A DNA stretch of 64,000 bases from a candidate division WWE3 bacterium GW2011_GWC2_41_23 (GCA_000996895.1 LCBB01000001.1:2542-66541), one strand, 5' to 3'; counted from the stretch's first letter, positions 1 to 24,161 are shown. Program-made: numbers and translations. Notes: a model not told the origin generated them from the sequence alone.

Positions 1-20
1 AATGCTTATATTTTATCAAC

Positions 21-659
21 ATGACTTCTAATGAATACGAAAAGCAGAAAAAGTTATTGATAGAAACTTTCAATAAATTATCTTCTTCTTATAAAAACCT
101 ATTTACATCCGATTCCACTCAAAGAGCTAAAGTACAGTCTCTGGTCAATTCTTGGAACATACAAAGAGGCTCAAAAGTACTAGAAATAGGTGGTGGGATT
201 GGCGATTTATCACCATACTTACTAAGAAAAATAGGAACAGAAGGAGAACTTTTTTTTCTAGATATTTCTCCCAAGATGGTTGTGAAAGCAAGAGAAAGAT
301 TGTATGGATACAATAACATACGATTTTTTTGCGGCGATATTACTAGTGCTACCTTTTCAGATTCCTTTGACAGTATTGTAGTTTTTAATACTTTCCCTCA
401 CTTTCTCAATAAGCAAAAAGCATTTTCTAATATGTATAAATTACTTAGAAAGGGCGGCAATTTAGTAATTTCTCACAATAATAGCAGATGGGGAATAGTG
501 GGTCATCATAAAAGAAAAGAATTTAGCTCTTTGGTTTCTGATTTTCCTGAGGATTCTGTCGTTTTTGAGTTATTAACCAAAGTGGGTTTCGACATCGAAG
601 TATTCGAAAATAACGAGGGGTATGATTATTATTTGGTGACGGCAAAGAAAAATACCTAA
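21..659 (+). CDS. Class I SAM-dependent methyltransferase (UbiE/COQ5-like fold)
   Basis: 212-aa ORF with glycine-rich motif I VLEIGGGIGDLS followed by acidic FLDIS (motif II-like) and post-I FCGDI. It lies in the AT-rich island segment. Confidence 0.6.
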   Translation: MTSNEYEKQKKLLIETFNKLSSSYKNLFTSDSTQRAKVQSLVNSWNIQRGSKVLEIGGGIGDLSPYLLRKIGTEGELFFLDISPKMVVKARERLYGYNNIRFFCGDITSATFSDSFDSIVVFNTFPHFLNKQKAFSNMYKLLRKGGNLVISHNNSRWGIVGHHKRKEFSSLVSDFPEDSVVFELLTKVGFDIEVFENNEGYDYYLVTAKKNT

Positions 660-688
660 TCCATTAAAGTGGATTCCTCCAGGATATA

Positions 689-745
689 CGGCTGAGCATC
701 TCGGTCTAGAACGCAACAAATTCTTTTATGTCTAAGGTACTGGTG
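689..745. repeat. Structured intergenic repeat, copy A
   Basis: ggctgaGCATCtcggtc (6-bp stem with two G-U pairs) followed by tagaacgcaacaaattcttttatgtctaagg. Confidence 0.55.
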
Positions 746-810
746 CATAGCCAGATGCTCATATAACACTGCTGTTGTAATGTCTAGGCATATATATTAG
801 AATTATATAT

Positions 811-1143
811 ATGACTATTTTAGAAATATGGTCTTTACAGAAAATATCGATGCAAGTGCTAAGTACAATATTTTTTCTTTTAATAATATTTTTTTCGTAT
901 CAGGTACACACAAAGAAAAGGGGAAAGGTATACACGGCGCTTTGGATATCAATAACATATGTATCATATCTACTCTTTCTCATAGTCCCGTCTATAGTAA
1001 TGCAAAGCATATTAACAGATCCACCGAAGATGTTGCCATTCAACCATTTATTGTTATTTATTCTTTTACTCACTCCTTTAGTTGTTATCTGGCTTATATA
1101 CTTTTTAATTAGATTATCGAAGAAGAAAGGTCAGCAAAATTAG
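811..1143 (+). CDS. Small hydrophobic membrane protein (3-4 predicted TM helices), unknown function
   Basis: 110-aa ORF made almost entirely of hydrophobic stretches. It sits upstream of the ABC transporter pair and could be a cognate small membrane or immunity-type subunit. No motif recognised. Confidence 0.3.
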   Translation: MTILEIWSLQKISMQVLSTIFFLLIIFFSYQVHTKKRGKVYTALWISITYVSYLLFLIVPSIVMQSILTDPPKMLPFNHLLLFILLLTPLVVIWLIYFLIRLSKKKGQQN

Positions 1144-1304
1144 AAGTTTTAAGTAAACCGATTGCGTTTAGACCTATTTTCAGTAGCATGTTTTTCAACT
1201 CCTTGATTCTGTTTGGAATTGCTGTTTCTTGTTTACATTAATAAGCTATAGATTTTGTTCGAATCTATCTTTTTCAAAGAGGGTTTTTTACATAGTGGTC
1301 ACTT

Positions 1305-1365
1305 GCGTGGCCATTCTGGCCGAGCATGTCGGCCTAGAACAATACTCTTCTCTAGGCTTCAAGTG
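1305..1365. repeat. Structured intergenic repeat, copy B
   Basis: ggccgaGCATGtcggcc (perfect 6-bp stem) followed by tagaacaatactcttctctaggct. The stem sequence differs from copies A and C while pairing is preserved. Confidence 0.6.
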
Positions 1366-1425
1366 AGACAGACGAAACAGTACAAGATAAAAAACTAAAA
1401 GTGGTAAGCATCGCCAATAAGGTTT

Positions 1426-2376
1426 TTGATGGTAGTTAGTCGAGATATGGATATTATAAAGGTTGAAAATTTAACTAAGGAATTTAATAGTTTCAAGGCA
1501 GTAGATAACATATCCTTTGATATAAAAGAGGGTGAGATATTCGGACTTCTTGGTCCAAATGGGGCGGGTAAGACAACTACAATTAGGATTTTAACCGGAA
1601 TTTTAAAGCCAACTAAGGGCAGTGTAAAAATAGATAAATATGATATTCAAAATAAACCTCTAGACGCAAAACAATTAATGGGAATTGTTCCAGAGACAGC
1701 AGATGCTTATCCAGACCTATCTGCTTATAAGAACCTATTTTTTATTGGGGAACTGTACGGATTACAAAGAGGAAACATAGTTAAAAAAGCAAATAAGCTT
1801 CTAGAATTATTTGAATTAAAAGAGAAAATACATAATAAAGTTAAAACATTTTCAAAAGGAATGCGTCAAAGGTTGGTTTTAGCAATGGCTTTAATGAATG
1901 AATCAAAAATACTTATTTTAGATGAGCCTACTAGTGGATTAGATGTGAAAAGTGCGAGATTAATAAAAACTTTAATTAAAAAATTTAATCAAGAGAGTAA
2001 AACCATTCTTCTAACTACTCATAATATTGAAGACGCTAATCAGCTTTGTGATAGGGTGGCAATTATGAATTACGGAAAAATTGTAGCTATTGATAGCCCA
2101 GAAAAACTTAAAGATGTAATTCAGAGTTTATCTTCGGTTGAAGTTTCCTTTGAAAAACCCACTGATATTAAAGATTTTAAATTTGTTGATATAACTAAAA
2201 CAGTAAAAGAAGGTGATAAAATAAAGTTTTATACTAAAAATCCGGAAGGAGTATTGTTTTCTTTAGTTGACTATGCTAAATCATCAGGTAATAAAATTAT
2301 ATCTTTAAATACCTTGAAACCAACTCTTGAAGATGTATTTGTAAAATTGACAGAAAATAAAAATGATAATTCTTGA
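1426..2376 (+). CDS. ABC transporter ATP-binding protein (ABC-2 / DrrA-like exporter type)
   Basis: Walker A GPNGAGKTT, ABC signature FSKGMRQR, Walker B ILILDEPTSGLD, H-loop TTHNIED. The real start may be the internal ATG at 1447 (MDIIKVENL). Confidence 0.85.
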   Translation: MMVVSRDMDIIKVENLTKEFNSFKAVDNISFDIKEGEIFGLLGPNGAGKTTTIRILTGILKPTKGSVKIDKYDIQNKPLDAKQLMGIVPETADAYPDLSAYKNLFFIGELYGLQRGNIVKKANKLLELFELKEKIHNKVKTFSKGMRQRLVLAMALMNESKILILDEPTSGLDVKSARLIKTLIKKFNQESKTILLTTHNIEDANQLCDRVAIMNYGKIVAIDSPEKLKDVIQSLSSVEVSFEKPTDIKDFKFVDITKTVKEGDKIKFYTKNPEGVLFSLVDYAKSSGNKIISLNTLKPTLEDVFVKLTENKNDNS

Positions 2377-2995
2377 ACAACTAAAACGTTCGTGGGCAAT
2401 TACAAAAAAGAATCTTACGGTATCTTTTTTAAGAGGCCCTGTTATTGTATTTGGTATAGTAATGCCTGCTTTTTTATTTGTTTCTTTTTCTTTAAAAAGA
2501 CAAATATCTATTGAATCATTAATTCCTGGTCTTTTGGGGATGAGCCTTTTTTTCACAGTTTCGTCAATTACGCCAGGAATAATGCCTTGGGAAACTAAGA
2601 TGAAAACCTTAGAAAGGATAATCTCGTCTCCAGTAAAGTTGTGGGCAATCATTTTAGGAGATGTGCTTTCTTCTTTTATATATGGCATTTTAATTACAAT
2701 ACCTATATTTTTTGTAAGTTCTTTGTTTTTAGGAAAGTTAATTATTAATATTCCGATATTTTTAGCTACAATATTGGCCGCTTTTTGTTTCTCCTCCTTG
2801 GGAGAGCTTATTTCCTCAATACCTACCGATAACCCTTCAAATGCAATGATGTTGTCAACTTTAATAAAATTTCCATTAATTTTTATAAGTGGAATTTTTA
2901 TTCCCCTCACTGAAATGGGGAGTTTAAGAATTGTTTCTTTTTTCTCCCCCCCCAACCTACTACACAGATTTATTAAGAGGGTACATAGAAAATAA
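2363..2995 (+). CDS. ABC-2 type transporter permease
   Basis: 210-aa ORF with about 6 hydrophobic helices. It overlaps the stop of the upstream ABC ATPase by 14 nt, the usual ATPase-permease operon layout. Confidence 0.6.
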   Translation: MIILEQLKRSWAITKKNLTVSFLRGPVIVFGIVMPAFLFVSFSLKRQISIESLIPGLLGMSLFFTVSSITPGIMPWETKMKTLERIISSPVKLWAIILGDVLSSFIYGILITIPIFFVSSLFLGKLIINIPIFLATILAAFCFSSLGELISSIPTDNPSNAMMLSTLIKFPLIFISGIFIPLTEMGSLRIVSFFSPPNLLHRFIKRVHRK

Positions 2996-3225
2996 GAGTT
3001 ATTTTAACGCAACAACAAATCTTTTAGTACTTCTCATCTTTTCAGTTGCCTTTTTTTCATTAGCTATTATCCTACATAAAAGAAGTATGCCAAAAAGGTT
3101 CTAATCTTGATTTTTAATCTAAATCCACTTAATCAATTGCATTCCATTTTGGCTGGGTACAAGGGATGAAGTTCTAACATTTTGTGAACACTTGCGTGTG
3201 TCTGCTACATTTCAAACGCAATATT

Positions 3226-3708
3226 CTAACTGGGAGAAAATTCTAAAAAATCTTTTAGGATTGTGTTCTGCCTTCCCCCACACTTGTCGTTTATTTCAGC
3301 TTGAGAGTGCTTCTCATCTCCATATGCAACTATTTCTTTAACTTCAGTTGTAGAGCAAGGGTGCTCACCTTTATTTCCGTAGTAAAATTTCTTCCCTACT
3401 TCAATTTCCTGATAGCGTGTTATTCCAGAATCTAGGGGCGTTTCTATATCACTTCTACCATCTTTAATTATGGTCGTACCGTCGGGACCTACCCTAATGC
3501 CGTATATATTATCGGATACCGTCCTAAAAAGAACTCGTGTGTAAACTACGGAGCCTGGAGATTTGGTGGACATGCCTAAAAGTCTTCCTATCTCAAATTT
3601 ATCGCCCGCTCTATTTGTTTCATTTGCAAGTCTTCCCCCTCCAATATCTACCGGACCACGATGCTCCTCTGCTTCAAAAGATTCGTTTGGGTTTAATGTT
3701 TTGTTCAT
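3226..3708 (-). CDS. Hypothetical protein (160 aa, soluble, Gly/Asp-rich)
   Basis: Uninterrupted 160-aa ORF with no recognisable motif. It lies immediately outside the att-like repeat at 3741. Confidence 0.35.
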   Translation of the reverse strand: MNKTLNPNESFEAEEHRGPVDIGGGRLANETNRAGDKFEIGRLLGMSTKSPGSVVYTRVLFRTVSDNIYGIRVGPDGTTIIKDGRSDIETPLDSGITRYQEIEVGKKFYYGNKGEHPCSTTEVKEIVAYGDEKHSQAEINDKCGGRQNTILKDFLEFSPS

Positions 3709-3740
3709 TATTAAAACTATAACATCAAAATACTATAAAT

Positions 3741-3776
3741 ACCTCTTGGCTGGCCATTAGGGTCCAAGTTCGAACT
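3741..3776. repeat. att-like direct repeat of the tRNA-Gln 3' flank
   Basis: An exact 12-mer, cctcttggctgg, is found here and at 12341-12352 (the tRNA-Gln 3' terminus plus flank). Here it is followed by tagggtccaagttcgaac, which resembles the tRNA T-arm sequence tagggattcgaac, and is in the same orientation. Confidence 0.35.
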
Positions 3777-3889
3777 GTTGTTATGATAATAATAGGTTAA
3801 GAGCTACATAGCAGAAGTCTGGCTTAGGAAGTGCTGAAGCTTCTTCTACATTTGGTTCGTTAGGGAACTTTTCTGGACTCATTATATAA

Positions 3890-4684
3890 TTAGTCTAAAA
3901 AGGTGAAGGATTTTGCAATTTCTTCAGTGATATTTCTTAAAATCTTCTCATCTTCAGCTGGGATTTGTTCTGGGAAAGAATAGAGAGATAAGTATATGGC
4001 CATATCTCTATTTTCCCACTCATCTCCTAAATAATAGATTACCCCATAACCAACGTAAGGGACGCCTGTATACTGCAACTCTGCTTTCATGATTTTATAT
4101 ACTCCGCCTTCTACATCGGATCGTGTTACACCCGATTGCATGGGGCTAAACTCACCCTTCAACTGACTACGGGATATCTCTATATTTACTGGTTGGACGT
4201 ATTTATATTCAAGTGGTTCTCTTTGAATCCAAATAGTTCCATTAATGGTTCCACTATCCCTCAAGTAAAGTTCTTTTGGATACTTAAAACTAATATTTCT
4301 TACCTCATCGTAAGCATAGTCAAATTTTGTCTCATATAACACCCACGTGCTTACATCCATATTTATATCTTTTACAGCCGTCTTTGTACTTTGTGTTTCC
4401 TTTTGTACATTTGGAGCATTAATTAACTCATTTGAAACTTCATATATATTTTCCATGCTAGTATCTTTGTTGGCATTACTAATATTTGAGGCGTTTCTAC
4501 TTATGGAATCGGTTATAACCTTCTGGGAATTGGTTACAAATTTTTGATAAAGAATACCCAAGATAAAGCCAATAAATGGAAGTGTTATTAGAAGAATCAA
4601 TGCTAAAGTTTTAGACAAGCGAGTAACAGTAGTAAAAGGATTTGGTTTTGGAGTAATTGTTGTAGACTGATTGGTATCTTCCAT
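3890..4684 (-). CDS. N-terminally membrane-anchored extracytoplasmic protein, unknown function
   Basis: 264-aa ORF. A single hydrophobic helix (LALILLITLPFIGFILGILY) follows about 25 N-terminal residues. The rest is hydrophilic and Asn/Ser-rich. Confidence 0.45.
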   Translation of the reverse strand: MEDTNQSTTITPKPNPFTTVTRLSKTLALILLITLPFIGFILGILYQKFVTNSQKVITDSISRNASNISNANKDTSMENIYEVSNELINAPNVQKETQSTKTAVKDINMDVSTWVLYETKFDYAYDEVRNISFKYPKELYLRDSGTINGTIWIQREPLEYKYVQPVNIEISRSQLKGEFSPMQSGVTRSDVEGGVYKIMKAELQYTGVPYVGYGVIYYLGDEWENRDMAIYLSLYSFPEQIPAEDEKILRNITEEIAKSFTFLD

Positions 4685-4764
4685 ATAAGTTAAGCTTAGC
4701 TAAATAATTCATTGGCGTCAATGTGTTGATATGACAACAAAAACCTTGGCTGTCCGCGTGGGAG

Positions 4765-5202
4765 TTAGTTGGAACTTTTAACCTTTAAAAACTGATCCAT
4801 CAATTGAATATCCGCTAAATCTTTTTCACGGCCTAATGCTTTTTTAAACCCACGAAGAGTAAGTAAGTTAACGTAAGAATGGCCATCAATAATATCCGCG
4901 TTTTTTATTTGATTTTCCACTGCACATATTTTGGGATTAGCAAAATGAGAACCAAACCCTAATAAAGTTATATTACCAATCTGTATGGTTTCAAATCTTT
5001 CGCTTCTAACAGGATACATATTTTTGTACTTATTCCATATTTCTGGAAGAACTAATATATCTATGTCGTGTGGTTCTCTTAGATTTCTTACTGCTAATGG
5101 ACCTGACCCTGTAATTACGTATTCACCAATATTTAATCCTATTTGATCAAATTCATTTAATAGTGTGGATATGCTCACATAGCTAGTATAACGTAGTTCC
5201 AA
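4765..5202 (-). CDS. Minimal nucleotidyltransferase (MNT / pol-beta superfamily) domain protein
   Basis: Motif ITGSGPLAVRNLREPHDIDILV fits the GS...DxD signature of pol-beta-type nucleotidyltransferases (antitoxin-type MNT). Length is 145 aa. Confidence 0.45.
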   Translation of the reverse strand: MELRYTSYVSISTLLNEFDQIGLNIGEYVITGSGPLAVRNLREPHDIDILVLPEIWNKYKNMYPVRSERFETIQIGNITLLGFGSHFANPKICAVENQIKNADIIDGHSYVNLLTLRGFKKALGREKDLADIQLMDQFLKVKSSN

Positions 5203-5235
5203 AGCTTGGGTAGTACTGCAGATTTAAATGTAACA

Positions 5236-5290
5236 ATCTGACTGAGCATGTCAGTCTAGAACAATTACGTTCTCCAGGCTATTTGGCTGG
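5236..5290. repeat. Structured intergenic repeat, copy C
   Basis: gactgaGCATGtcagtc (perfect 6-bp stem, GCATG loop) followed by tagaacaattacgttctccaggct. It belongs to the same family as copies at 689-745 and 1305-1365. Confidence 0.6.
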
Positions 5291-5317
5291 CGGTATTGTA
5301 CACGATTTGAATCAGAA

Positions 5318-5749
5318 TCACCCCTTTTCACTAAATGGTTTATAGGGAATGTAGGATCTAATACTCAGGCCGTATTTTTGTATTAAGTTCTTATCCAAAA
5401 ACTTACTCTTCATGTATATGTCTCTAATGTTCTGCATAAGAATTTTCTGTTTATTACCTATGCTTGTCTGATCTGGAAATTTTTTTTCATCAGTAATATT
5501 ATGAACAAGATCGTTTCTATTGCTACTTAGTTCGTTAAGTAGTGTTGCTTCTGATTTACTGATCTCTTCTTTTAATAGAAGAGTCAAGATTGCTGAGCTA
5601 AAAGTGTCACGTCCCGTGTGTTTTCTTACAATACCTTCAACTATGAATGCATGAACGAGCACATTTCGTAATTGGCTACTTCGTTTACCTGTTAGTATTT
5701 CTTCTTTAAACTCGTTTTTAATCCACCTGGGATTACTCATATTTGTCAT
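5318..5749 (-). CDS. HEPN-like protein (two RNxLVH motifs)
   Basis: 143-aa ORF with two copies of the R-x4-H pattern, LRNVLVHAF and NRNDLVHNI, which resemble the RNxLxH(xY) motif of HEPN/HepT RNases. It is adjacent to the MNT-like gene. Confidence 0.35.
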   Translation of the reverse strand: MTNMSNPRWIKNEFKEEILTGKRSSQLRNVLVHAFIVEGIVRKHTGRDTFSSAILTLLLKEEISKSEATLLNELSSNRNDLVHNITDEKKFPDQTSIGNKQKILMQNIRDIYMKSKFLDKNLIQKYGLSIRSYIPYKPFSEKG

Positions 5750-5783
5750 GTGATTTATTTACAAAGCAAGAATATCAAGTTAT

Positions 5784-5999
5784 TTAATGAAACCCACCTG
5801 GGTCAGGGTCATACTCTCTGTCATCGTTAAGAACCTTCACTTCTACCTTGTTTCCCGCATCATCCGTAAAGGTTTCTGTTGAATAATACGGCATGTCACT
5901 GTCACTGCTACTCGAGTTTGGTGGGGAGGAAAGTGTACACCCTGTCACAAAAACACTAATAAATGGTAGGAGCGCTATTAATAGTATTCTACTAATCAT
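5784..5999 (-). CDS. Small lipoprotein (71 aa)
   Basis: Signal peptide MISRILLIALLPFISVFVTGC with a lipobox-like VTGC, followed by a Ser/Asp-rich mature part. The ORF track extends the start to 6086, but the extension is hydrophobic with no signal logic, so the start at the Met at 5999 is preferred. Confidence 0.4.
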   Translation of the reverse strand: MISRILLIALLPFISVFVTGCTLSSPPNSSSSDSDMPYYSTETFTDDAGNKVEVKVLNDDREYDPDPGGFH

Positions 6000-6113
6000 T
6001 TCTAGCTCAACTATACCTTCAAAAAAACTTAAAGTACAATTGTAAACGGGTAATTTGAGTAAGAACTTGGCGGTCTTGTACGCCATTTGAAATGTTTTAC
6101 CCTGGTAAACTTA

Positions 6114-8498
6114 TCAAGCGATATGGTTATCTAATATGTCTTGGACAAAATCAATGCCCTTACTAATTGTGTTGTAATTTGTATTTGCCAAACTCCAAGC
6201 ATGAGAATCTTGCTGAGAAATATCTAAAATACTTCTTAATTTGTCGGTGTTTTCATCAGGTAGCCCTACTGAATTTGCCTTGTCGAATAGTCCTTTTATG
6301 CCTAAATTCTTTTGAACATTCTTCGCAATATTAAATGGAATAGAGTTGTACATCAAATATTCTATACACACAGATTCCATCGCCTTTCTTAACTCACCTC
6401 CTGCTGTCTCTAAAGATGTTATATCACCAAGTAAAAGCATATCTTTACAAACTTTGAGGTGTCTTTCAGTATCTCTATAGCCTATTAATTCAATTTTGGG
6501 TCCCTTTTCATCGTTATTATAAAAGTGGTATATTGCTGGTTTGGTGCTATAAAACCTTCCTTTTAACTTTAGATAGAATTCTTTGGAATGTGTCATGATA
6601 ATTAATTGTTTACGTTGCTGAATTTCAACAAGTACTTCCAATAGTGACTGGGAATGATTGTCATCCATTGATTGAACGGGGTCGTCTAGAATTACACATT
6701 CCCACGTCGCATTCCTATCTACTCTTTGAGGAAAATAGATACTTAACGCTAGGCTATTTGTGTGTGCTTCGCTAAAGAAAGTAACTGGATTTACTTGCTT
6801 TCCATATGCTTCTGCTTTTAGACTAGCCTGTCTTCTATTCTCTTTAGTCTCTATTCCGAAAAACTGTACTTTATCGCTTGGGTTAAGTTTGTGGTAATAA
6901 TCCTTAATTTCGTCGGCATGTAACGCAAGTAGTGTTTCAATCTCCTTTTTTTCAAACTCCTCAAGATCTGTTTGTATCAGGTCTATTTCTAATAGTAGTT
7001 TGTGCCGTGTAATAAATTCAGCAGAGTTGTTTAAAAACTTCGATACCTTTTCGATATAAAACCACTTTTTAAATGTGTTCTGATCAACGTCTTTCTCAAG
7101 AGATATAGCTTTTCCTATGCCCTCTTTAAGAGATTCCCAAGCGCTATTTATATCTTCAAAATGTTGTTTTATAGAATTTACAAGGTTATCAATATTTATC
7201 TCAAGCACTACATCGGTATTTTTATGAAAATATTTTTGTTCAACGTACACGCGATAAGATTCCCAGCTTTCCTTTAATGTTTGGGCTAGTCGCGCGGTAT
7301 CTGTATCTACTTTAGTTTGAAGTTGTTGAGTTGCTATAGCTAGATCTTCCAACCCAGTTTCCTTGAGTTTAATTGCAACTGCAGCCAGTTCAGTTTCATT
7401 AGGTAAGTACGTCTTACACGAAATTTCAAAATTACTTAGCCACAAACTTATTTCATCAGTCTGTGTTTTTAGGCGTGAGTTTGCAATTTGTATTTCCTCG
7501 TTATCTTTCAATAACTTGCTAATCGAATTTTTTCTTTCCTCGGTATACGTTTCTTCTAAACAAAATGGGCATACTGGGGATTTTCCTAAAACATATCCGA
7601 GGTTTAGGAATTCTAATTCGCTTTTCCCGTAGGATCCGTACGAAACCTTTATTGCTTCACTTGCGAACCCCTCAAAGCCTGTTTTAATATACTCTGCGAA
7701 TTCATCTATTTTAAACCTGTCGGGGTAGCTTATAGATGTTACTCTATTACCTAATTCTGAATTTAATAGAGCTTTAATTTTAGATGATATGGCCGCCGAA
7801 ATTGCTTCGATGTCATGGTTACTAATTGATAAGATCTTCGATAGTTCTAAGTGAAACTCCGCTACATTTAAACTAGACAAACTTTGTGTAAGAGAAATAA
7901 ATTCTGGATACTCAGTTAGCTCGGTAATAAGGGACTCGTATTTTCTTAGGGAGCTTTTGTATTCGTCAGTTTTCTTGTTATTACGAAGAGCCATCAAATC
8001 ATCTCTTGATGTTGATAGTGTATCTTGACCCAAAATACAAGATATCTGTTCCCATCTATCTTTTGGCTCAGCATCAACAAGAGCCTTAATTTCAGTCTGA
8101 GCTAGCATGGGACGAAAATAACTTTCTAGGTTTAAAGCGAGCGAACTAAAATCAGCGACCTCCAAATCGTTTATGTACAGCTTATATTCTCTCGAGATCA
8201 ATTCTTTTTTTAGCTTATACTCTATTCCTCGAATTGTGCCTGTTAACTCTACGAACGGGTTTTCAGATTCTGAGTAGAAGACGTTCTTTAAGTACTCTTC
8301 GTACTGGTATTCTGATTTACAGCGAGAGAGACGTTGCCTAGATATTTGATCAAAAAAAAGCCACTCTAAAGCTTCTGTTAAGCTACTCTTCCCAGAGCCG
8401 TTTTGTCCGTAAACAATAGTTATGTTGTCGTCAAATAATATTGTCTCCTCGGTGTTAAAACCCCGAAAGCCTTTGATAGTTATTTTTTTAAGTTTCAT
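6114..8498 (-). CDS. Rad50/SbcC/RloC-like ABC ATPase with coiled-coil and CPFC zinc-hook motif, plus a C-terminal HEPN-like domain (RDTERH)
   Basis: 794 aa. N-terminal MKLKKITIKGFRGFN...GQNGSGKSS (Walker A, RecF/SMC-head type). A long predicted coiled-coil centre carries CPFC (the Rad50/RloC hook CPxC) at about residue 305. Walker B/D-loop CVILDDPVQSMD and H-loop IIMTHS lie near residue 600. A roughly 170-aa C-terminal domain contains YRDTERHL (Rx4H). The architecture matches RloC/PrrC-like anticodon-nuclease-type or abortive-infection ATPases. Confidence 0.55.
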   Translation of the reverse strand: MKLKKITIKGFRGFNTEETILFDDNITIVYGQNGSGKSSLTEALEWLFFDQISRQRLSRCKSEYQYEEYLKNVFYSESENPFVELTGTIRGIEYKLKKELISREYKLYINDLEVADFSSLALNLESYFRPMLAQTEIKALVDAEPKDRWEQISCILGQDTLSTSRDDLMALRNNKKTDEYKSSLRKYESLITELTEYPEFISLTQSLSSLNVAEFHLELSKILSISNHDIEAISAAISSKIKALLNSELGNRVTSISYPDRFKIDEFAEYIKTGFEGFASEAIKVSYGSYGKSELEFLNLGYVLGKSPVCPFCLEETYTEERKNSISKLLKDNEEIQIANSRLKTQTDEISLWLSNFEISCKTYLPNETELAAVAIKLKETGLEDLAIATQQLQTKVDTDTARLAQTLKESWESYRVYVEQKYFHKNTDVVLEINIDNLVNSIKQHFEDINSAWESLKEGIGKAISLEKDVDQNTFKKWFYIEKVSKFLNNSAEFITRHKLLLEIDLIQTDLEEFEKKEIETLLALHADEIKDYYHKLNPSDKVQFFGIETKENRRQASLKAEAYGKQVNPVTFFSEAHTNSLALSIYFPQRVDRNATWECVILDDPVQSMDDNHSQSLLEVLVEIQQRKQLIIMTHSKEFYLKLKGRFYSTKPAIYHFYNNDEKGPKIELIGYRDTERHLKVCKDMLLLGDITSLETAGGELRKAMESVCIEYLMYNSIPFNIAKNVQKNLGIKGLFDKANSVGLPDENTDKLRSILDISQQDSHAWSLANTNYNTISKGIDFVQDILDNHIA

Positions 8499-8643
8499 TT
8501 TTTATTTTCTCCAAAAGCTTATCAAAACTTATGGACAGGGACTCATATTTTCGTGTTTTTATGTACTCTTTTAATAGTTCTTTTTGAACTTCATTTAAGG
8601 TCTCGTAAAATTTTTCTAAGGGTGTACTTATATTAGTTGTCAT
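8488..8643 (-). CDS. Small hypothetical protein (51 aa) translationally coupled to the ABC ATPase
   Basis: Internal Met start MTTNISTPLEKFYETLNEVQKELLKEYIKTRKYESLSISFDKLLEKIKNET. It overlaps the ATPase start by 11 nt and is charged and helical. The longer 98-aa version in the ORF track has an implausible N-terminus. Confidence 0.35.
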   Translation of the reverse strand: MTTNISTPLEKFYETLNEVQKELLKEYIKTRKYESLSISFDKLLEKIKNET

Positions 8644-8674
8644 AACGGGATTATAGCAGTTTTTTGGAGATGCG

Positions 8675-9445
8675 TTGTATACTCCACTTATGCTGAAATT
8701 GATTGATATCGTAGTGTTGCGCAGTGTAAATCCAATTAAAATTGTAAATCGTCCTAGTGTTAAAACATTGGAGTTTCTTAACAATCTTATTAGGACAAAA
8801 GGTATTGAGGAATTTATTGAAAACGCAAGGCGTCAATATAAGATAAGTGACGCTGGATTAGACATCCGTAAGCTAGTGGGGGTTAACTTGTATGATCTCG
8901 GTGATACAAATATTAATGCTTTTAAAATTATTGCGGACGAGTATGTTCGTAGTACTGGCATGCCTTCTGAACAAGCTCTTGAAATATTTTTACTGGTTAT
9001 GTTCAACGCTATAATAGATCTTAAGTATTTTAAAAGCGCACCTTCTGACCCCAATGAGTTTGTATTTGGGCGTAGAAAAATAGCCGATAAAATGTGGGAG
9101 TATTCGCACGAAGTAGGTGCAATTATAGTCCCTTTTGACGTGTCTAAGACCAAGCTAAAAAAATGGATAGATACAAACTGGAAGCTTATAAGTGAGGATA
9201 TGATAAACAATTTTACTTCAAACCCATTTATTCTAGGTATCCATGAAAATTTGATATACGAGGAAGAGATAAGAGAATTAAAAGAAGAGAAAGGCAAATC
9301 CTTTGCTCAGGTTACTGAAATATTACAAGGTAAATACCCCAAAGATAAGTGGAAGCTTTCCAGAGTTAAAAAAGTCTACTACGACGCACGCCAAAGGGAA
9401 ACCTTACAGAAGTTGAAACAACAACGCGATCTTCAGACACCTTGA
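8675..9445 (+). CDS. Hypothetical protein (256 aa), divergent from the ATPase operon
   Basis: Long ORF, Lys/Glu-rich at the C-terminus, no recognised motif. The start is uncertain (possibly the Met at 8690). Confidence 0.45.
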   Translation: MYTPLMLKLIDIVVLRSVNPIKIVNRPSVKTLEFLNNLIRTKGIEEFIENARRQYKISDAGLDIRKLVGVNLYDLGDTNINAFKIIADEYVRSTGMPSEQALEIFLLVMFNAIIDLKYFKSAPSDPNEFVFGRRKIADKMWEYSHEVGAIIVPFDVSKTKLKKWIDTNWKLISEDMINNFTSNPFILGIHENLIYEEEIRELKEEKGKSFAQVTEILQGKYPKDKWKLSRVKKVYYDARQRETLQKLKQQRDLQTP

Positions 9446-9647
9446 ATAGTTCCTGTTAGGTGACTAGTTTATAAATCTTATACATTCAGCTAAGTATGCT
9501 GAGTGGCAACAATCTAGACAAACTAACAGAATACCTTCGTAGACTTGGGTACACCAGTCTAAGCGTGAGCGAAACAATTTCAGCCTTTACGGCAATTACT
9601 CCTGTTTTAGCTTCAATATCCTTACGTATTTATCAGGAGAAAATGAA

Positions 9648-10730
9648 ATGATAGATACTCTAAGGTTTAAAATATTGGGCAGCAAAGAAATATATAACGC
9701 GATAAAAAATAAAGGAATAGAAAGAGTTATGTGGGATTATGCAGAAGATAAGCAAAAACATGTATCGGTTTATCAATTAATCCTAGTACCCAGTAAGGAA
9801 TGCAAAATATACATTCAAGCACAGGATTACGAGCACTTTTTTGTAGAGTTTTCCTTACCTAAAGTTTTGTTTGGTACAAATGTGTTCATGATCTACCCCG
9901 AACAGGTTACTGCCACTCTAATTGAAGTTTATAGGATAATTCGTAATTTTTTGAAGCTACCGATAGATTCAATAGATAATTGGATAGTGCAAAGGGTTGA
10001 TTATAGCTATGTTTGGAAATTTGATAATGCTATGCAAGCTCTTTGGGTACTCGAGAACATGGCAAAGTTTCAATACCCAAGGAAAAATGTAACTATCAGG
10101 GACACGTCTGTAACTATTAATGGCACGACCGAAAGAATGATCTTCTACTTAAAGCATGAAGAATATGTAGATAAGACTTACAAGAAATTAGCAAAAACAC
10201 AGCCAAGGATTGCTGAGTTTCTTTTTGAGGAGTCCAAAAACACATTGAGGTTTGAAATAGTACACATGAAGGCTAAATTAAATAGCATTTTTGGGAGTGA
10301 AGTTACTTACAAGGAAGTTTTGGGTGAGAAATATATCATTAGCACCTTGAATGAAGCACTGAAGACTTTTTGTAATTCTAATACACTGATCTCAATGACG
10401 TGGCACGAGGCAGTAGAACTTGTTTATTCAAAATTATCGGGTCGTGAGGCCTTTAATTTATACGGCTTTCTGTGCATGTATTACCCATACGACATGTCTC
10501 AGAGGGAATATAACAGAGCGTTTTTAAAGCAAAACATTAGTCCATCAACCATATATAAGTATAAAGAAAAATTCAAGGAGATTGGTGGTGGAATACTATT
10601 TAGTAATCCTGAGTTTAAGGCTATAGACTTGAATATTCCTAATATTCGTGTAATTAATACGGAAGATCGTGTCGCGGATATAGCGAAAGCGATCCGCGAC
10701 CTCCGTATTGATGATTTGCAATCTGTTTAA
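9648..10730 (+). CDS. Hypothetical protein (360 aa), possible replication or mobilisation protein of the island
   Basis: AGGAGA SD before the ATG. Long ORF immediately upstream of the serine recombinase. No motif confirmed. Confidence 0.45.
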   Translation: MIDTLRFKILGSKEIYNAIKNKGIERVMWDYAEDKQKHVSVYQLILVPSKECKIYIQAQDYEHFFVEFSLPKVLFGTNVFMIYPEQVTATLIEVYRIIRNFLKLPIDSIDNWIVQRVDYSYVWKFDNAMQALWVLENMAKFQYPRKNVTIRDTSVTINGTTERMIFYLKHEEYVDKTYKKLAKTQPRIAEFLFEESKNTLRFEIVHMKAKLNSIFGSEVTYKEVLGEKYIISTLNEALKTFCNSNTLISMTWHEAVELVYSKLSGREAFNLYGFLCMYYPYDMSQREYNRAFLKQNISPSTIYKYKEKFKEIGGGILFSNPEFKAIDLNIPNIRVINTEDRVADIAKAIRDLRIDDLQSV

Positions 10731-10773
10731 CTGCGTACTCTAATAGCAGTTAAACATTTCTATATAGAAATAT

Positions 10774-12408
10774 ATGAATGAATTAAGAAATAAGAATTGC
10801 ATACTTTTCTGTAGAGTCTCTTCAAGAGAGCAAGAAGAAACTGGCTACTCCCTTCCTGCGCAACAGTCTTATCTCCAAGCCTACACGAATAGAAGTCGTT
10901 TAAATGTGATTAGGGCTTTTAACATTTCTGAAAGTGCTAGTGGTAGAAAAGCACGTGTGGAGTTTAATCAGATGTTAGATTACGTTAGGAAACAAAACAT
11001 CAACGTAATTATCTGCGAGAAGGTGGATAGGCTGACAAGGAATCAAAAAGATGCCTTGACGATAGATGATTGGGTTAAAGAAGATGTTTTTCACGAGGTA
11101 CATTTTGTTAAAAATTCATTTATTCTAAATAAGGAGTCAAAGGCTAGTGATAAGTTCGTTTGGAATATTCACGTATCTCAAGCTCAGTTTAATATAGAAA
11201 ACCTCTCAGAAGAGGTTAAGAAGGGTCAAAACGAGAAGATTTCAGAGGGTTGGTATCCATCTCAAGCACCCGTTGGGTACAGGTCAGGTCTGAACGGAAA
11301 AAAGAAGATTATAGAGCTAGATCCAAACACAGCACCGTTAATGGAGAGGGTACTAGTTGAGTATTCTACAGGTGTTCATTCCGTGTTATCTATTTGTAGA
11401 TTTGCTCAAAAAATCGGATTAAGAAATCTCAAAGGTAATTTTATAGCTAAAACTTCCATGCACAGGATTTTACAAAACCCCTTTTATTACGGAATGTTTA
11501 CATGGAATAAAGCCAGTTATGTTGGTAATCACCCAGCCATTATTGATAAAGATACATTCGATAAAATTCAAAAGTATTTGAAGCGAAAGACTCCTCTTGT
11601 TTATAGACAACTTAATGCTCTTTATAGTGGTATTTTGCATTGTAAGGATTGTGGAGGATTAATTACTTGGGAAAGTCATAAAGGTCATCAGTATGGTTAT
11701 TGTAAGGGCTGTAGAGGTAAACGCGGAGTTAAAGAACCTGAAATTAATAAACCAATTCAAAAGTTATTTGGTAACGCTAAGATACATAAAAAGCAGGTCG
11801 CTGATGCAGTTCGTGAAGGTGTTATTTCTTATGTGAAGAACTCTTACGGTATTGTTGGTAAATCTAATGCACAGATTGAAAAGGATATTGAAAAATATAC
11901 TAATAGGTTGAGTAAGCTTTATGATGATCGTGCTGACGGGCTGTTAACTCCTGAAATGTACTTCAACAAATTTGCAGAATATAACAACACACTCACTGAT
12001 TTGAGAATTCAGTTAAAAGAAAATAGCCAGCATAAGGAGTTTTTTGATATTGAAGGTTTTAAGCAATTCTTTGAAGGTTCTCAGAATTTGGAACTGTATT
12101 ATGAGAAAGCTACTAAAGACGAAAAAAGAAAACTACTTAAATTCGCTTTTGAAGATTTAGCTTACGCTAATAATTCTTTGGGATATAACTTTTCTAAGGC
12201 TTATTTATTACTTTATAAGGCTGTTGAGATTACTAATAGTTCGGAAATCAAAAATATTAAGGAATTTCAGGAATATATTTCCGAACCTGACGAATTAGTT
12301 GCTAGTAAAACAAAAAATGACTCTTTTCGAGCTATTCGTTCCTCTTGGCTGGGGGATAGGGATTCGAACCCCAATAGGCGGGACCAAAACCCGCAGTCCT
12401 ACCGTTAG
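10774..12408 (+). CDS. Large serine recombinase (resolvase/invertase N-domain, recombinase domain and zinc ribbon)
   Basis: N-terminal CILFCRVSSREQ with the catalytic Ser in RVSS. Central recombinase domain, Cys cluster CKDCGG...HQYGYCKGC (zinc ribbon), then a coiled-coil-like tail. The last ~21 codons are read through the antisense of tRNA-Gln. Confidence 0.85.
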   Translation: MNELRNKNCILFCRVSSREQEETGYSLPAQQSYLQAYTNRSRLNVIRAFNISESASGRKARVEFNQMLDYVRKQNINVIICEKVDRLTRNQKDALTIDDWVKEDVFHEVHFVKNSFILNKESKASDKFVWNIHVSQAQFNIENLSEEVKKGQNEKISEGWYPSQAPVGYRSGLNGKKKIIELDPNTAPLMERVLVEYSTGVHSVLSICRFAQKIGLRNLKGNFIAKTSMHRILQNPFYYGMFTWNKASYVGNHPAIIDKDTFDKIQKYLKRKTPLVYRQLNALYSGILHCKDCGGLITWESHKGHQYGYCKGCRGKRGVKEPEINKPIQKLFGNAKIHKKQVADAVREGVISYVKNSYGIVGKSNAQIEKDIEKYTNRLSKLYDDRADGLLTPEMYFNKFAEYNNTLTDLRIQLKENSQHKEFFDIEGFKQFFEGSQNLELYYEKATKDEKRKLLKFAFEDLAYANNSLGYNFSKAYLLLYKAVEITNSSEIKNIKEFQEYISEPDELVASKTKNDSFRAIRSSWLGDRDSNPNRRDQNPQSYR

Positions 12409-12419
12409 ACGATCCCCCA
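12346..12419 (-). tRNA. tRNA-Gln (anticodon UUG)
   Basis: Reverse complement TGGGGGATCGTCTAACGGTAGGACTGCGGGTTTTGGTCCCGCCTATTGGGGTTCGAATCCCTATCCCCCAGCCA. U1-A72 pair, G73 discriminator, anticodon loop TTTTGGT giving UUG, T-loop TTCGAAT, CCA encoded. Confidence 0.8.
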
Positions 12420-12513
12420 ATGACAAATTATTATAGCATCTAAAAAACTTGTATCCTCAGAGAAATCTCAAATTCTTACCTCTTCCTAACCCTCCCCCAA
12501 ACTCCAACCCCCC

Positions 12514-20317: not shown

Positions 20318-20394
20318 TGGTGGGCCTGCCTGGGCTCGAACCAGGGACCTTTCGGATGTAAACCGAACGCTCTGACCAACTGAGCTACAAGCCC
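20318..20394 (-). tRNA. tRNA-Val (anticodon UAC)
   Basis: Reverse complement GGGCTTGTAGCTCAGTTGGTCAGAGCGTTCGGTTTACATCCGAAAGGTCCCTGGTTCGAGCCCAGGCAGGCCCACCA. Cloverleaf parses, anticodon loop TTTACAT, CCA encoded. Confidence 0.85.
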
Positions 20395-20491
20395 CAACAT
20401 CTATCTAGACGGAACAAGGTCTGCAGAACCGTCCGTCCATTATTCTATCAAATCTCTTTGAAATTGCGACATTATTTGGTTAAATTAGTGT

Positions 20492-21469: not shown

Positions 21470-21774
21470 AGGTGTCACTATCCTTTAAAAAGAAAACAGA
21501 AGATTTTAAGTGTCGTAACTGTGGCAAGTTTGTTACGGGAACAGGTTACACCAATCACTGCCCTAACTGCTTATTTAGTGAGCACGTAGACATAATGCCC
21601 GGCGACCGGGCAAACCCCTGCAAAGGAATGATGAAACCTGTGGGCATCGTAAAAAAACGGGGGGAATTCTTTGTGGTCCATAAATGCGAAAAATGTGGTG
21701 AAATAAAACACAATAGAACTTCCGAGAACGATAATCAGGAAAAAATTATTGAGATTTCGGTCTTACCTGTCTAG
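21382..21774 (+). CDS. RNHCP-domain zinc-ribbon protein
   Basis: CRNCGKFVTGTGYTNHCPNCLFSEHVD matches the RNHCP family signature, and a second Cys pair CEKCGE follows. It overlaps the 3' end of the upstream gene in another frame. Confidence 0.55.
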   Translation: MSDEPTCTLRKLFEFSQDDRGICKHFNKLKVSLSFKKKTEDFKCRNCGKFVTGTGYTNHCPNCLFSEHVDIMPGDRANPCKGMMKPVGIVKKRGEFFVVHKCEKCGEIKHNRTSENDNQEKIIEISVLPV

Positions 21775-23131: not shown

Positions 23132-23175
23132 AATGCCTTCGTATTATACCGTGGGCAGGTTGTTGACGGATTTAA

Positions 23176-24137: not shown

Positions 24138-24161
24138 GCGAGGCAACAAAACAAATATTTC

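What the first reader, a model, noticed from the sequence alone, without database searches (positions are those of the whole stretch)
1..12419. AT-rich accessory island inserted at the 3' end of tRNA-Gln(UUG), with a large serine recombinase gene running into the tRNA
Seen in the sequence: an abrupt composition change at about 12.35 kb. The serine recombinase gene (RVSS catalytic motif, zinc ribbon) is the tRNA-proximal gene, and its last ~21 codons are encoded on the antisense of the intact tRNA-Gln. Everything to the left is accessory-type cargo: transporter, methyltransferase, toxin/antitoxin-like and defence-like genes, and a private repeat family. Elements that target tRNA 3' ends place their recombinase next to the tRNA in this way and rebuild the tRNA 3' end from element DNA. 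The island is at least 12.3 kb, and its left end may lie outside the window. The island is the most plausible carrier of any novel system here.
Basis: partly seen in the sequence, partly recalled or inferred. Interest (0 to 1): 0.7.

Follow-up and report, generated by a model that had tools for sequence, protein, structure and literature searches.

The report
Serine-recombinase element array at tRNA-Gln
A 7-kb mobile element sits at the very end of a glutamine tRNA gene in a groundwater "candidate phyla radiation" bacterium; it uses a serine recombinase, a type not known for targeting tRNA genes, the recombinase gene reads across the insertion site into the tRNA, and a string of older one-gene insertions lies behind it.

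Summary
An intact tRNA-Gln(UUG) lies at 12346-12419 (-). A 544-aa large serine recombinase (LSR) gene (10774-12408, +) ends 63 nt inside it. GC is 0.31-0.39 to the left against 0.41 to the right.

The island is not one element. Four related elements share a conserved end sequence. This places the intact element at 5284-12352 (7.06 kb), with a TGGCTG core at both ends. TGGCTG is the antisense of the last 6 nt of the tRNA, CCA included. The element carries the LSR, a rolling-circle Rep (Phage_CRI), two conserved small genes and a Lamassu LmuB-like ATPase.

From about -50 to 5283 there are seven shorter units of one gene or operon. Each begins with an att-like relic (689, 1317, 3150, 3747, 4747, 5239), always in the tRNA's orientation and always intergenic.

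The recombinase reading frame crosses the att core. Integration therefore swaps its C-terminus: a predicted ...WLAVLYTI* when excised becomes a tRNA-antisense tail when integrated. The same holds across a large clade of LSRs from candidate phyla radiation (CPR) bacteria.

Excision was not observed. I rate this a new variant of a known kind.

The parts
12346..12419 (-). tRNA-Gln(UUG), intact. It is the attB-derived target, and its last 6 nt (CAGCCA) form the crossover core.
   Evidence: ARAGORN; Rfam tRNA 54.2 bits.
12346..12351 (+). attR core TGGCTG. It encodes the W-L codons of the recombinase. The P arm ...ATTCGTTCCTCT lies immediately to its left, inside the recombinase coding sequence.
   Evidence: The P arm and core are conserved in five related elements, and the sequence diverges right after the core (alignment A3).
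10774..12408 (+). Large serine recombinase (544 aa). Its last 20 codons and the stop are encoded on the tRNA antisense.
   Evidence: Pfam Resolvase and Recombinase; PHROG 95 integrase 2e-70; 1576 homologues; sequence read directly.
9648..10730 (+). Rolling-circle replication initiator-like protein (G2P/CRI family).
   Evidence: Pfam Phage_CRI 1.3e-07, 32 bits against a cut-off of 21.7; phrog_702 replication protein; 64-65% identical in L024 and L026.
9496..9651 (+). Conserved 51-aa ORF overlapping the Rep start.
   Evidence: ORF list. A 51-aa gene is called at the same position in L025 and L026.
8675..9445 (+). Conserved core protein of unknown function (251-256 aa). It always lies upstream of Rep in related elements.
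   Evidence: 43-54% identical in L024, L025 and L026. No significant family hit.
6114..8498 (-). Cargo: SMC/ABC-type ATPase, closest to Lamassu LmuB. A 51-aa ORF lies upstream of it at 8488-8643.
   Evidence: PADLOC LmuB 3.8e-38 and 2e-26; Pfam AAA_23, SMC_N and AAA_13.
5318..6086 (-). Cargo: p143 (5318-5749, weak HEPN-like with an RNDLVH motif) and p100 (5784-6086, possible membrane or lipoprotein).
   Evidence: PADLOC CARF_HEPN and TmtA at E 0.002-0.009 only. No Pfam hit.
5284..5311 (+). attL of the intact element: core TGGCTG(G) plus the element's own P' arm CGGTATTGTACACGATTTGAA. In the excised circle this would complete the recombinase ORF as ...WLAVLYTI*.
   Evidence: The same arm lies at the far end of four related elements with different adjacent cargo: window 5284, L068 134, L024 5259, L026 3115. 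Predicted translation.
5239..5283 (+). Hairpin-type att relic with no gene, a 'null unit': TGACTGAGCATGTCAGTCTAGAAC...TTCTCCAGGCTATT.
4747..5238 (+). Older unit. A relic (TGGCTG...GTTGGAAC) is followed by p145 (4765-5202, -), which is nucleotidyltransferase-like. Its left arm GTTGATATGACAACAAAAAC matches the tRNA-proximal flank in L013 and L014.
   Evidence: phrog_12854.
3747..4746 (+). Older unit. A relic (TGGCTGGCCATTAGGGTCCAAGTTCGAAC) is followed by p264 (3890-4684, -).
   Evidence: (D6). A p264-like gene sits next to tRNA-Gln in L013.
3150..3746 (+). Older unit. A relic (TGGCTGGGTACAAGGGATGAAGTTCTAAC) is followed by p160 (3226-3708, -).
1317..3149 (+). Older unit. A hairpin-type relic (TGGCCGAGCATGTCGGCCTAGAAC) is followed by the ABC ATPase (1426-2376) and ABC-2 permease (2363-2995).
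   Evidence: In L068 the sequence up to 1316-1320 is joined directly to a related intact element.
689..1316 (+). Older unit. A hairpin-type relic is followed by a 110-aa membrane protein (811-1143). The unit ends with the arm GTGGTCACTTGCGTGGCCATTC, also seen next to tRNA-Gln in L018, L024 and L011.
1..688 (+). Methyltransferase unit (gene 21-659). It begins at a hairpin-type relic 49 nt left of the window.
   Evidence: Pfam methyltransferase families. Relic at L006 6252.

Best explanation
Window 5284-12352 is an intact 7.06-kb integrative element. Its own large serine recombinase inserted it into the last 6 nt (CAGCCA, CCA included) of tRNA-Gln(UUG).

The element's attP lies inside the 3' end of the recombinase gene. 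The P arm is the codons ...AIRSS, the core TGGCTG is the codons W-L, and the P' arm supplies six more codons and a TGA. After integration the reading frame instead continues into the antisense of the host tRNA, giving ...WLGDRDSNPNRRDQNPQSYR*. The tRNA stays intact.

The element also carries a rolling-circle Rep, so it probably replicates as a small circle after excision. Its variable slot holds a defence-type gene, here an LmuB-like ATPase.

It is the newest, tRNA-proximal member of a tandem array. Each integration regenerates the target, so earlier insertions are pushed leftwards. They survive as seven one-gene or one-operon units, each headed by an att relic in the same orientation.

Shown: the recombinase identity, the overlap with the tRNA, the element ends, the relics and the sporadic distribution among relatives. 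Inferred: actual excision and integration, rolling-circle replication, the defence function, and the order of the integration events.
For: 1. Recombinase identity: Pfam, PHROG and NCBIfam hits, an invariant S16 and four Cys.

2. Element ends: five related recombinase genes (55-94% identical) share ...ATTCGT(T/A)C(C/A)T(C/T)T-TGGCTG, and the sequence diverges exactly after the core. Four related elements carry the same 27-nt arm TGGCTG(G/A)C(G/A)GT(A/T)TTG...TTTGAA at the other end, next to unrelated cargo genes.

3. Independent insertions: the elements sit in tRNA-Gln(UUG) (window, L068), in tRNA-Gln(CUG) (L026), and next to another element (L024).

4. Extra DNA behind the element: L068 joins window 1184-1320 (99% identical) directly to its own element. 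Window 1317-5283 is therefore additional DNA.

5. Variable left flank: relatives with a syntenic right flank have no recombinase (L013, L014, L021) or a different one (L016, L017, L019, L022) to the left of the same tRNA.

6. Relics: all att-like modules found in 19 loci have the orientation of the tRNA core. None occurs in the other 51 kb of the window. All four exact TGGCTG sites on the + strand of the island are intergenic.

7. Family-wide trait: 47 of 117 full-length homologues end in a tRNA-antisense translation in the same frame (D-S-N), against 1 in each of the other two frames. This was checked on DNA in L016, L023, L011, L026, L068, L069, L070 and L074.

8. Composition.
Against: No excised circle, attP junction or empty attB of the same species was found. 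The metagenome, viral and cluster look-ups returned nothing, so current activity is unproven.

The shared core is only 6-8 nt. The crossover dinucleotide and any half-site symmetry could not be defined.

The older units contain intact genes and no recombinase pseudogenes. Simple 'integrate then decay' does not predict this.

Contig L005 is 100% identical to window 774-12421, which includes those older units, yet its right flank belongs to another species. That is either an assembly chimera at the tRNA or evidence that more than the 7-kb unit moves.

The Rep assignment rests on a 32-bit Pfam hit.
Confidence: 0.8

Rival explanations
1. The units to the left of 5284 are not decayed elements. They are non-autonomous gene cassettes, each an att arm, one gene and another att arm. 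Serine recombinases capture, excise and reshuffle them in trans. On this reading the tRNA-Gln locus works as a cassette platform, like an integron or an SCC composite island.
For: Every intergenic gap between -49 and 5317 holds a relic, and no gap inside the intact element does.

Each unit holds one intact gene or operon and no recombinase remnant.

The same few end types recur across genomes: TTCTCCAGGCTATA, GTGGTCACTT...CATTC and GTTGWTATGACAA on the left of a core, and the hairpin type on the right.

L073 shows gene-relic-gene-relic spacing at 1773, 2492, 3553 and 4217.

The hairpin stem keeps its pairing through changes on both sides (GGCCGA/TCGGCC against GACTGA/TCAGTC).

A gene-less 45-nt unit exists at 5239-5283.
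Against: No identical cassette was seen at two different array positions or genomes, and no circular cassette junction was found.

Genes lie in both orientations.

The window has only one serine recombinase, and its own arms differ from the hairpin type. Nothing in this genome is shown to act on these units.

Relics are equally expected from plain serial integration.
Confidence: 0.3
2. One reading: the whole 12.3-kb or larger AT-rich region is one element carrying all the listed cargo. Its far end lies outside the window.
For: Low GC extends from about 0.8 kb left of the window to the tRNA. L005 is 100% identical over 774-12421 while its other flank is only about 80% identical.
Against: The element end at 5284 is conserved in four relatives of 6.3-8.5 kb. 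L068 lacks 1317-5283. Internal att relics are present. L005's right flank is 99.96% identical to a genome whose own assembly has a different recombinase at this tRNA, so a chimeric join at the 74-nt identical tRNA is plausible.
Confidence: 0.07
3. The 7-kb unit is an integrated filamentous (inovirus-like) prophage, not a plasmid-like element.
For: The Rep belongs to the phage G2P/CRI family. Sizes of 6.3-8.5 kb fit inoviruses. Small membrane-like ORFs are present. Inoviruses that use serine recombinases, and inoviruses in CPR hosts, have been reported (PMC6813254).
Against: No pI/Zot-type morphogenesis ATPase or coat protein was detected with Pfam, PHROGs or NCBIfam. The non-core part differs completely between relatives and holds defence-type genes: LmuB-like, AbiEii, HEPN_AbiU2 and OLD-like. 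No relative of the window's recombinase or Rep was found in IMG/VR when each was searched alone; a family-alignment search found eight distant recombinase loci, at most 35% identical.
Confidence: 0.05
4. The recombinase is not an integrase for this DNA, for example a resolvase or invertase. On this reading its overlap with the tRNA is chance read-through.
For: The tail after W-L varies and shows no sign of being needed. All three antisense frames of this tRNA are largely open.
Against: It has the domain set of integrases. The same fusion, in the same frame, is seen across a large clade and with several different tRNAs. The element ends are defined.
Confidence: 0.03

Closest known systems
Staphylococcal SCC / SCCmec composite islands (Ccr large serine recombinases at the 3' end of rlmH/orfX)
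   Same: A large serine recombinase integrates an element at the extreme 3' end of a conserved housekeeping gene. The gene stays functional and the target is regenerated. Elements therefore pile up in tandem, separated by short att repeats, and they include recombinase-less units. The best NCBIfam hits of this recombinase are CcrB, CcrA and CcrC.
   Different: The Ccr scores are far below the family cut-offs (96.7 against 900 bits). The target is a tRNA gene, not rlmH. The recombinase ORF itself crosses the att core. The element has a rolling-circle Rep. The units are mostly single genes. The host is a CPR bacterium.
tRNA-targeting genomic islands and prophages with tyrosine integrases (Islander/TIGER type; Williams 2002)
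   Same: The integrase gene lies next to the tRNA. Insertion is at the tRNA 3' end and the gene is restored. The elements are sporadically distributed, differ in composition from the host, and form tandem arrays at one tRNA.
   Different: The recombinase here is of the serine family. The shared core is 6-8 nt rather than tens of nt of tRNA. Mageeney et al. 2020 found 4.9% t(m)RNA use for serine integrases against 44.5% for tyrosine integrases, and called the former unreported.
SSV1-type archaeal integrases, and integration-dependent immunity in mycobacteriophages (from my own knowledge, not checked here)
   Same: attP lies inside a coding sequence of the element, so integration changes the encoded protein's end.
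   Different: SSV1 uses a tyrosine integrase whose gene is split in two. In the mycobacteriophages the gene concerned is the repressor. Here only the last 6 codons are exchanged (about 30 in related 'WDDFRT' forms), and a functional consequence is not shown.
Integrons; CIME/ICE accretion-mobilisation in streptococci (from my own knowledge)
   Same: An array of short units is bounded by recombination sites in one orientation beside a recombinase gene. Some units lack a recombinase.
   Different: There is no IntI, attI or attC and no common promoter. Genes lie in both orientations. The recombinase is of the serine family. Cassette mobility is not shown.

Membership tests
Large serine recombinase (serine integrase) | N-terminal resolvase catalytic domain with a serine nucleophile | tested here: met
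   PF00239 1.1e-21. R14, V15 and S16 are invariant in 18 homologues.
Large serine recombinase (serine integrase) | Recombinase domain followed by a zinc-ribbon domain | tested here: met
   PF07508 1.3e-14. C290, C293, C310 and C313 are invariant. PF13408 is precomputed for many homologues, but it did not hit the window protein itself.
Large serine recombinase (serine integrase) | Short shared core between the att sites, with no long direct repeats | tested here: met
   The core is TGGCTG(G), 6-8 nt, at both ends in four elements.
Large serine recombinase (serine integrase) | Catalyses attP x attB recombination | not testable with these tools
   No attP or attB junction was found in the collections searched.
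tRNA-targeting integrative genetic element | Present or absent among relatives that share the flanking genes | tested here: met
   L013, L014 and L021 lack it. L016, L017, L019 and L022 have other recombinases. The right flank is syntenic.
tRNA-targeting integrative genetic element | The target tRNA is kept intact after insertion | tested here: met
SCC (Ccr) elements | Recombinase reaches the CcrA, CcrB or CcrC family score | tested here: not met
   96.7, 68.7 and 46.8 bits against cut-offs of 900, 700 and 900.
SCC (Ccr) elements | Tandem units separated by att repeats, some without a recombinase | tested here: met
   Relics at -49, 689, 1317, 3150, 3747, 4747, 5239 and 5284. There is one recombinase gene in 64 kb.
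Integron | IntI tyrosine recombinase with attI, and promoterless cassettes in a single orientation | tested here: not met
   No tyrosine recombinase is present in the island. Genes lie on both strands.
Inovirus prophage | pI/Zot-like morphogenesis ATPase and small coat proteins | tested here: not met
   No such hit in Pfam, PHROGs or NCBIfam.
Lamassu defence system | LmuB SMC-type ATPase | tested here: met
   PADLOC LmuB 3.8e-38 (residues 1-255) and 2e-26 (residues 1-646).
Lamassu defence system | Adjacent LmuA effector (and LmuC) | tested here: inconclusive
   The neighbours p51, p100 and p143 have no LmuA or LmuC hit. p143 has only weak HEPN-like hits.

The most novel reading that the evidence does not exclude
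In a large clade of serine recombinases from CPR bacteria, attP is embedded in the 3' end of the recombinase gene and the target is the 3' end of a tRNA gene.

Integration would then act as a built-in switch. It would replace the recombinase's native C-terminus with a tRNA-antisense-encoded tail. The native end is 6 residues here and about 30 conserved residues ('WDDFRTLKW...') in related phage-like forms. Integration would also make the mRNA 3' end complementary to an abundant tRNA.

Because the target is regenerated each time, the same locus would serve as a serine-recombinase cassette platform that collects single-gene units, many of them defence genes.
Probability: 0.3. Interest if true: 0.8.

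Novelty: new variant of a known kind. Interest (0 to 1): 0.6.

Why it matters
Serine integrases are generally held not to use tRNA genes. Here a whole clade of at least hundreds of members in the little-studied CPR bacteria appears to do so as a rule.

These recombinases come with sequence-defined attP and attB sites that could be tested directly. They could also be used as new integrases aimed at a universally conserved target.

The recombinase gene spans its own attachment site. That makes a long-discussed idea directly testable in a serine system: that integration state can be sensed through the integrase's own coding sequence.

The tRNA-Gln locus also shows how very small CPR genomes collect accessory and defence genes.

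Tried and rejected
1. First candidate for the far end: the 12-nt repeat CCTCTTGGCTGG at 3742-3753 and 12341-12352. I rejected it as the end of the intact element once the conserved arm at 5284 was found in four relatives. I kept it as an older relic.

2. Dyad symmetry and central dinucleotide of the reconstructed attP: I compared the arms by hand. I found no convincing symmetry and make no claim.

3. Search for attP, attB or excised forms. The pattern CCTCTTGGCTGGNNNNTAGGG in metagenome and viral contigs gave almost only chance matches, plus L055, which is the L018 type. An attP pattern in viral contigs gave 0 hits. Members of the recombinase's 90% clusters all carry tRNA-type or relic-type tails, and none has the predicted excised tail.

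4. Relatives in IMG/VR with single proteins: none. With an alignment: eight distant loci. One of them, L074, again ends in a tRNA.

5. Rfam: no RNA family matches the repeats.

6. Promoter and terminator scan: no more sites than in shuffled sequence.

7. Solved structures: only the catalytic domain matches (TP901-1 integrase, 3g13). Nothing matches Rep.

8. Inovirus reading: rejected because no morphogenesis genes were found.

9. L005 as proof of horizontal transfer: not used, because a chimeric join at the identical tRNA cannot be excluded.

10. Literature: no description of tRNA-targeting serine recombinases in CPR bacteria was found in the library searched.

Full report
**1. Source and reproducibility**

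Exact-protein look-ups place the window in groundwater (Rifle aquifer) assemblies of candidate division WWE3, a lineage of the candidate phyla radiation (CPR). They include NCBI GCA_001773275.1, contig MEWI01000003.1. The recombinase itself is deposited as 'Resolvase-like protein' of WWE3 bacteria. At least 24 contigs from independent assemblies carry the same arrangement, so it is not an assembly accident.

**2. The observation**

ARAGORN and Rfam find an intact tRNA-Gln(UUG) at 12346-12419 on the - strand.

The ORF 10774-12408 (+) encodes a 544-aa protein with Pfam Resolvase and Recombinase domains. It has an RVSS motif (S16 invariant) and four invariant cysteines. Its best PHROG is 'integrase' at 2e-70. 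The stop codon lies at 12406-12408, so 63 nt of the ORF are antisense to the tRNA.

GC is 0.351 for 5284-12345 and 0.31-0.39 further left. It averages 0.407 to the right, where the lowest 7-kb window is 0.381. GC3 shows the same step. All elements of the observation are confirmed.

**3. Relatives**

I scanned one genome per species for the 3' 45 nt of this tRNA. This gave 14 loci, mostly WWE3.

- The right flank (patatin-like gene, p149, ferredoxin-reductase-like gene, P-type ATPase) is syntenic in L013, L014 (the complete RAAC2_WWE3_1 genome), L016, L017 and L021.
- The left flank is different in every case.
- L013, L014 and L021 have no recombinase there.
- L016, L023 and L011 have other large serine recombinases (about 25% identical) that also read into the tRNA, in the same frame.
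- L017, L019 and L022 have a roughly 430-aa serine recombinase next to the tRNA without overlap.

The site is therefore a hot spot for serine-recombinase elements.

**4. The ends of the intact element**

A protein search found 1576 homologues. I fetched contigs for the closest ones: L068 (94% identity), L026 (77%), L024/L025 (78%) and L073 (55%). All have the module p250-p51-Rep-recombinase, preceded by unrelated cargo.

At the recombinase end, all five share ...ATTCGT(T/A)C(C/A)T(C/T)T-TGGCTG and diverge immediately after it. What follows is:
- tRNA-Gln(UUG) in the window and L068;
- tRNA-Gln(CUG) in L026;
- a hairpin-type sequence in L024 and L073.

At the other end, four elements carry the same arm, TGGCTG(G/A)C(G/A)GT(A/T)TTG(T/C)A....TTTGAA. 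It lies at window 5284, L068 134, L024 5259 and L026 3115, each next to a different cargo gene.

The element in the window is therefore 5284-12352, or 7062 nt plus one core. Its relatives measure 6.3-8.5 kb.

The common core TGGCTG is the antisense of CAGCCA: the last two acceptor-stem bases, the discriminator and CCA. The element thus rebuilds at most 6-8 nt of the tRNA.

**5. The recombinase gene spans the att site**

The P arm is the codons ...A-I-R-S-S and the core is the codons W-L. After integration the frame runs on through the tRNA antisense.

In the reconstructed circle it would end ...WLAVLYTI*. By my own reading of the arm sequences printed, the other three arms also carry an in-frame TGA at the same place and encode similar tails: WLAVLHSI*, WLAVLYAV* and WLTVLYAI*.

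Among 117 full-length homologues:
- 47 end in a tRNA-antisense translation in the D-S-N frame (GAT TCG AAC, the T-loop), against 1 in each of the other two frames;
- 29 more stop within two or three codons of the junction.

I checked DNA in further cases:
- L070/L071: tRNA-Gln, with Phage_CRI Rep and OLD-like cargo.
- L069: a tRNA interrupted by a group I intron, with type I restriction-modification cargo.
- L074: an IMG/VR contig ending in a tRNA.

Reading across the att core into a tRNA is thus a clade-wide trait.

A subgroup of 14 of the 117 instead continues for about 30 conserved residues (WDDFRTLKW...). One of these lies on a phage-like contig with no tRNA, L082. Displaced pieces encoding this tail occur as relics at L006 3976 and L072 1415. 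This fits a gene whose end is split off on integration, but I did not pursue it further.

**6. What lies to the left of 5284**

L068 bases 1-137 are 99% identical to window 1184-1320 and then continue directly into L068's own element. Window 1317-5283 is therefore additional DNA between an older flank and the intact element.

That stretch, and the DNA further left, is punctuated by sequences that begin with the core or a one-base variant. Each continues as one of three things:
- a hairpin-type module, (T/C)G(G/A)C(T/C)GAGCAT(G/C)TC(G/A)G(T/C)CTAGAAC, at 689, 1317, 5239 and at -49 in L006;
- a tRNA-3'-end-like module, TGGCTG...GGG...AGTTCGAAC, at 3150, 3747 and 4747;
- the 'WDDFRT' type at -2325.

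Several controls support their being att relics:
- All four exact TGGCTG sites on the + strand of the island are intergenic, whereas the three on the - strand lie in genes.
- Every intergenic gap from -49 to 5317 has a relic, and none inside the intact element does.
- In a scan of 19 loci, all modules have the orientation of the tRNA core, and none occurs in the other 51 kb of the window.
- Recombinase ORFs are fused to the hairpin module at exactly the core position in L024, L072 and L073. The tails ...SWLSMSV* of P0007 and P0038 show the same fusion.
- In L024 the hairpin module heads a 6-kb unit that contains a roughly 430-aa recombinase and ends with GTGGTCACTT...-TGGCTGG-tRNA. The same two arm types bracket window 689-1316.

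Each unit holds one gene or operon:
- the methyltransferase;
- the 110-aa membrane protein;
- the ABC ATPase and permease;
- p160;
- p264;
- p145;
- one unit with no gene.

Low GC starts about 0.7-0.9 kb left of the window. An att relic at -2325 suggests the array may reach further, into a radical-SAM/SPASM peptide-modification cluster.

**7. Cargo of the intact element**

The 794-aa ATPase is closest to Lamassu LmuB (PADLOC 3.8e-38 and 2e-26). No LmuA or LmuC partner was recognised.

p143 has an R-x4-H motif and weak HEPN-like hits. p100 and the upstream 51-aa ORF have no assignment.

[quoted passage not shown] The variable slot is a defence-gene slot by annotation. No function was tested.

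**8. Mechanism proposed**

- Excision by the recombinase would join 12345 to 5284 and give a 7.06-kb circle. Its attP would lie within the recombinase gene's 3' end. This is inferred.
- The Rep (Pfam Phage_CRI, 32 bits against a cut-off of 21.7; phrog_702) would replicate the circle by a rolling-circle route. This is inferred.
- Integration into CAGCCA of a tRNA-Gln regenerates both the tRNA and the target. Serial integrations therefore build the array. The structure is shown; the order of events is inferred.
- Whether the older units are decayed elements or cassettes moved in trans is open. I give the active-cassette reading 0.3.

**9. Comparison with what is known**

The behaviour is that of a tRNA-targeting genomic island, but the recombinase is of the serine family. 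Mageeney et al. 2020 report t(m)RNA use for 4.9% of serine-integrase elements against 44.5% of tyrosine-integrase ones. They state that such use had not been reported before (PMC7192596). Streptococcal surveys likewise place serine integrases inside protein genes or intergenic regions (PMC7563491).

The closest analogue in architecture is the staphylococcal SCC composite island. Both have a large serine recombinase, the 3' end of a housekeeping gene as target, tandem units and recombinase-less units. The Ccr family scores, however, are far below their cut-offs.

An att site inside a coding sequence recalls SSV1-type integrases and integration-dependent immunity. That comparison rests on my own knowledge.

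I found no description of this clade in the library searched. This is not proof that none exists.

**10. Caveats**

- No excised form or empty site of the same species was found.
- L005 combines this array at 100% identity with the right flank of another species, whose own assembly has a different recombinase there. It may be a chimera.
- L018 and L055 have ...CCCATTC-GTTCCTCT-TGGCTGG-tRNA and no recombinase. I read this as a scar of a microhomology (CCATTC) deletion of such an element. This is inference only.

**11. Verdict**

The finding is real and largely correctly read. It resolves into a defined 7-kb serine-recombinase element and an accreted array of units behind it. It belongs to an apparently undescribed tRNA-targeting clade of serine recombinases whose gene spans its own att site.

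I rate it a new variant of a known kind, with interest 0.6.

Noticed in passing
L006 1-6300 (DNA left of the window; window 1 = L006 6302): Two radical-SAM/SPASM genes, two transglutaminase-core genes and 43- and 47-aa ORFs lie here. This is a peptide-modification (RiPP-like) cluster directly left of the methyltransferase. An att-like 'WDDFRT' relic lies inside it at L006 3976.
   Followed up: partly
L005 (ENA ERZ28564009 scaffold_4255) against window 774-12421: L005 is 100% identical to the window up to 2 nt past the tRNA. Beyond that it is about 80% identical to the window but 99.96% identical to WWE3 RIFOXYD1_FULL_43_17 (L016), which carries a different recombinase at this tRNA. This is either transfer of the whole array or a chimeric assembly.
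   Followed up: partly
L018 and L055, immediately 3' of tRNA-Gln: There is no recombinase, yet the 8 nt next to the tRNA (GTTCCTCT) equal the last 8 nt of the recombinase-side arm. They are preceded by the GTGGTCACTT...CCCATTC arm. It looks like a deletion scar through a CCATTC microhomology.
   Followed up: partly
L069 11592-11797 (- strand): The tRNA targeted by this related recombinase is interrupted by a group I intron (Rfam 99.6 bits). That is why ARAGORN missed it.
   Followed up: partly
L082 9000-9215; L072 1415; L006 3976: A subgroup of the recombinases continues past the core for about 30 conserved residues (WDDFRTLKW...). Their DNA mimics a tRNA 3' end (TGG...TGGGAYGATTTYAGAAC). Displaced copies occur as relics, which suggests the gene end is split off on integration.
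   Followed up: partly
window 12277-12291, and the equivalent position in homologues: 113 of 117 homologues have an (F/S/L)-E-(P/L/Q) motif within the last 75 residues; in those where I read the DNA (window, L069, L073, L082) it lies about 20-30 residues before the junction. The DNA there reads TTCGAACC or a close variant (TTCCGAACC in the window, TTCGAACA in L069), like the tRNA T-loop but in another frame. It is unclear whether this is a protein motif or a DNA site.
   Followed up: no
window 1341-1400; L072 8612-8700; L073 11603-11651; L024 2022-2100: Downstream of several hairpin relics lies a conserved stretch, ...TTCTCCAGGATGTAAATGAGACAAATGAGACAGTATAAAAAG...GTGTCTC..TTGACA. It contains an inverted repeat and a -35-like hexamer, and may be a regulated promoter at the unit's edge.
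   Followed up: no
window 4765-5202 (-) and 5318-5749 (-): A nucleotidyltransferase-like protein (GS...DID motif) and a weak HEPN-like protein (RNDLVH motif) are neighbours, as in HEPN/MNT toxin-antitoxin pairs. The attL of the intact element lies between them, so they belong to different units.
   Followed up: partly
window 20318-28993 (- strand): Seven further tRNA genes (Val, Phe, Gly, Leu x2, Lys, Arg) are scattered over about 9 kb of core genome. None was checked for insertions.
   Followed up: no
window 35001-37000 and 60001-63000: Further patches of lower GC (0.36-0.37). Not examined.
   Followed up: no
L013 500-4430 (oriented; left of tRNA-Gln in WWE3 RIFOXYB1_FULL_43_24): A Dcm-like methyltransferase, a Vsr-like endonuclease and a 675-aa protein occupy the equivalent position. 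I identified the first two by eye from N-terminal motifs. The locus also holds defence-type genes in genomes without a recombinase.
   Followed up: no
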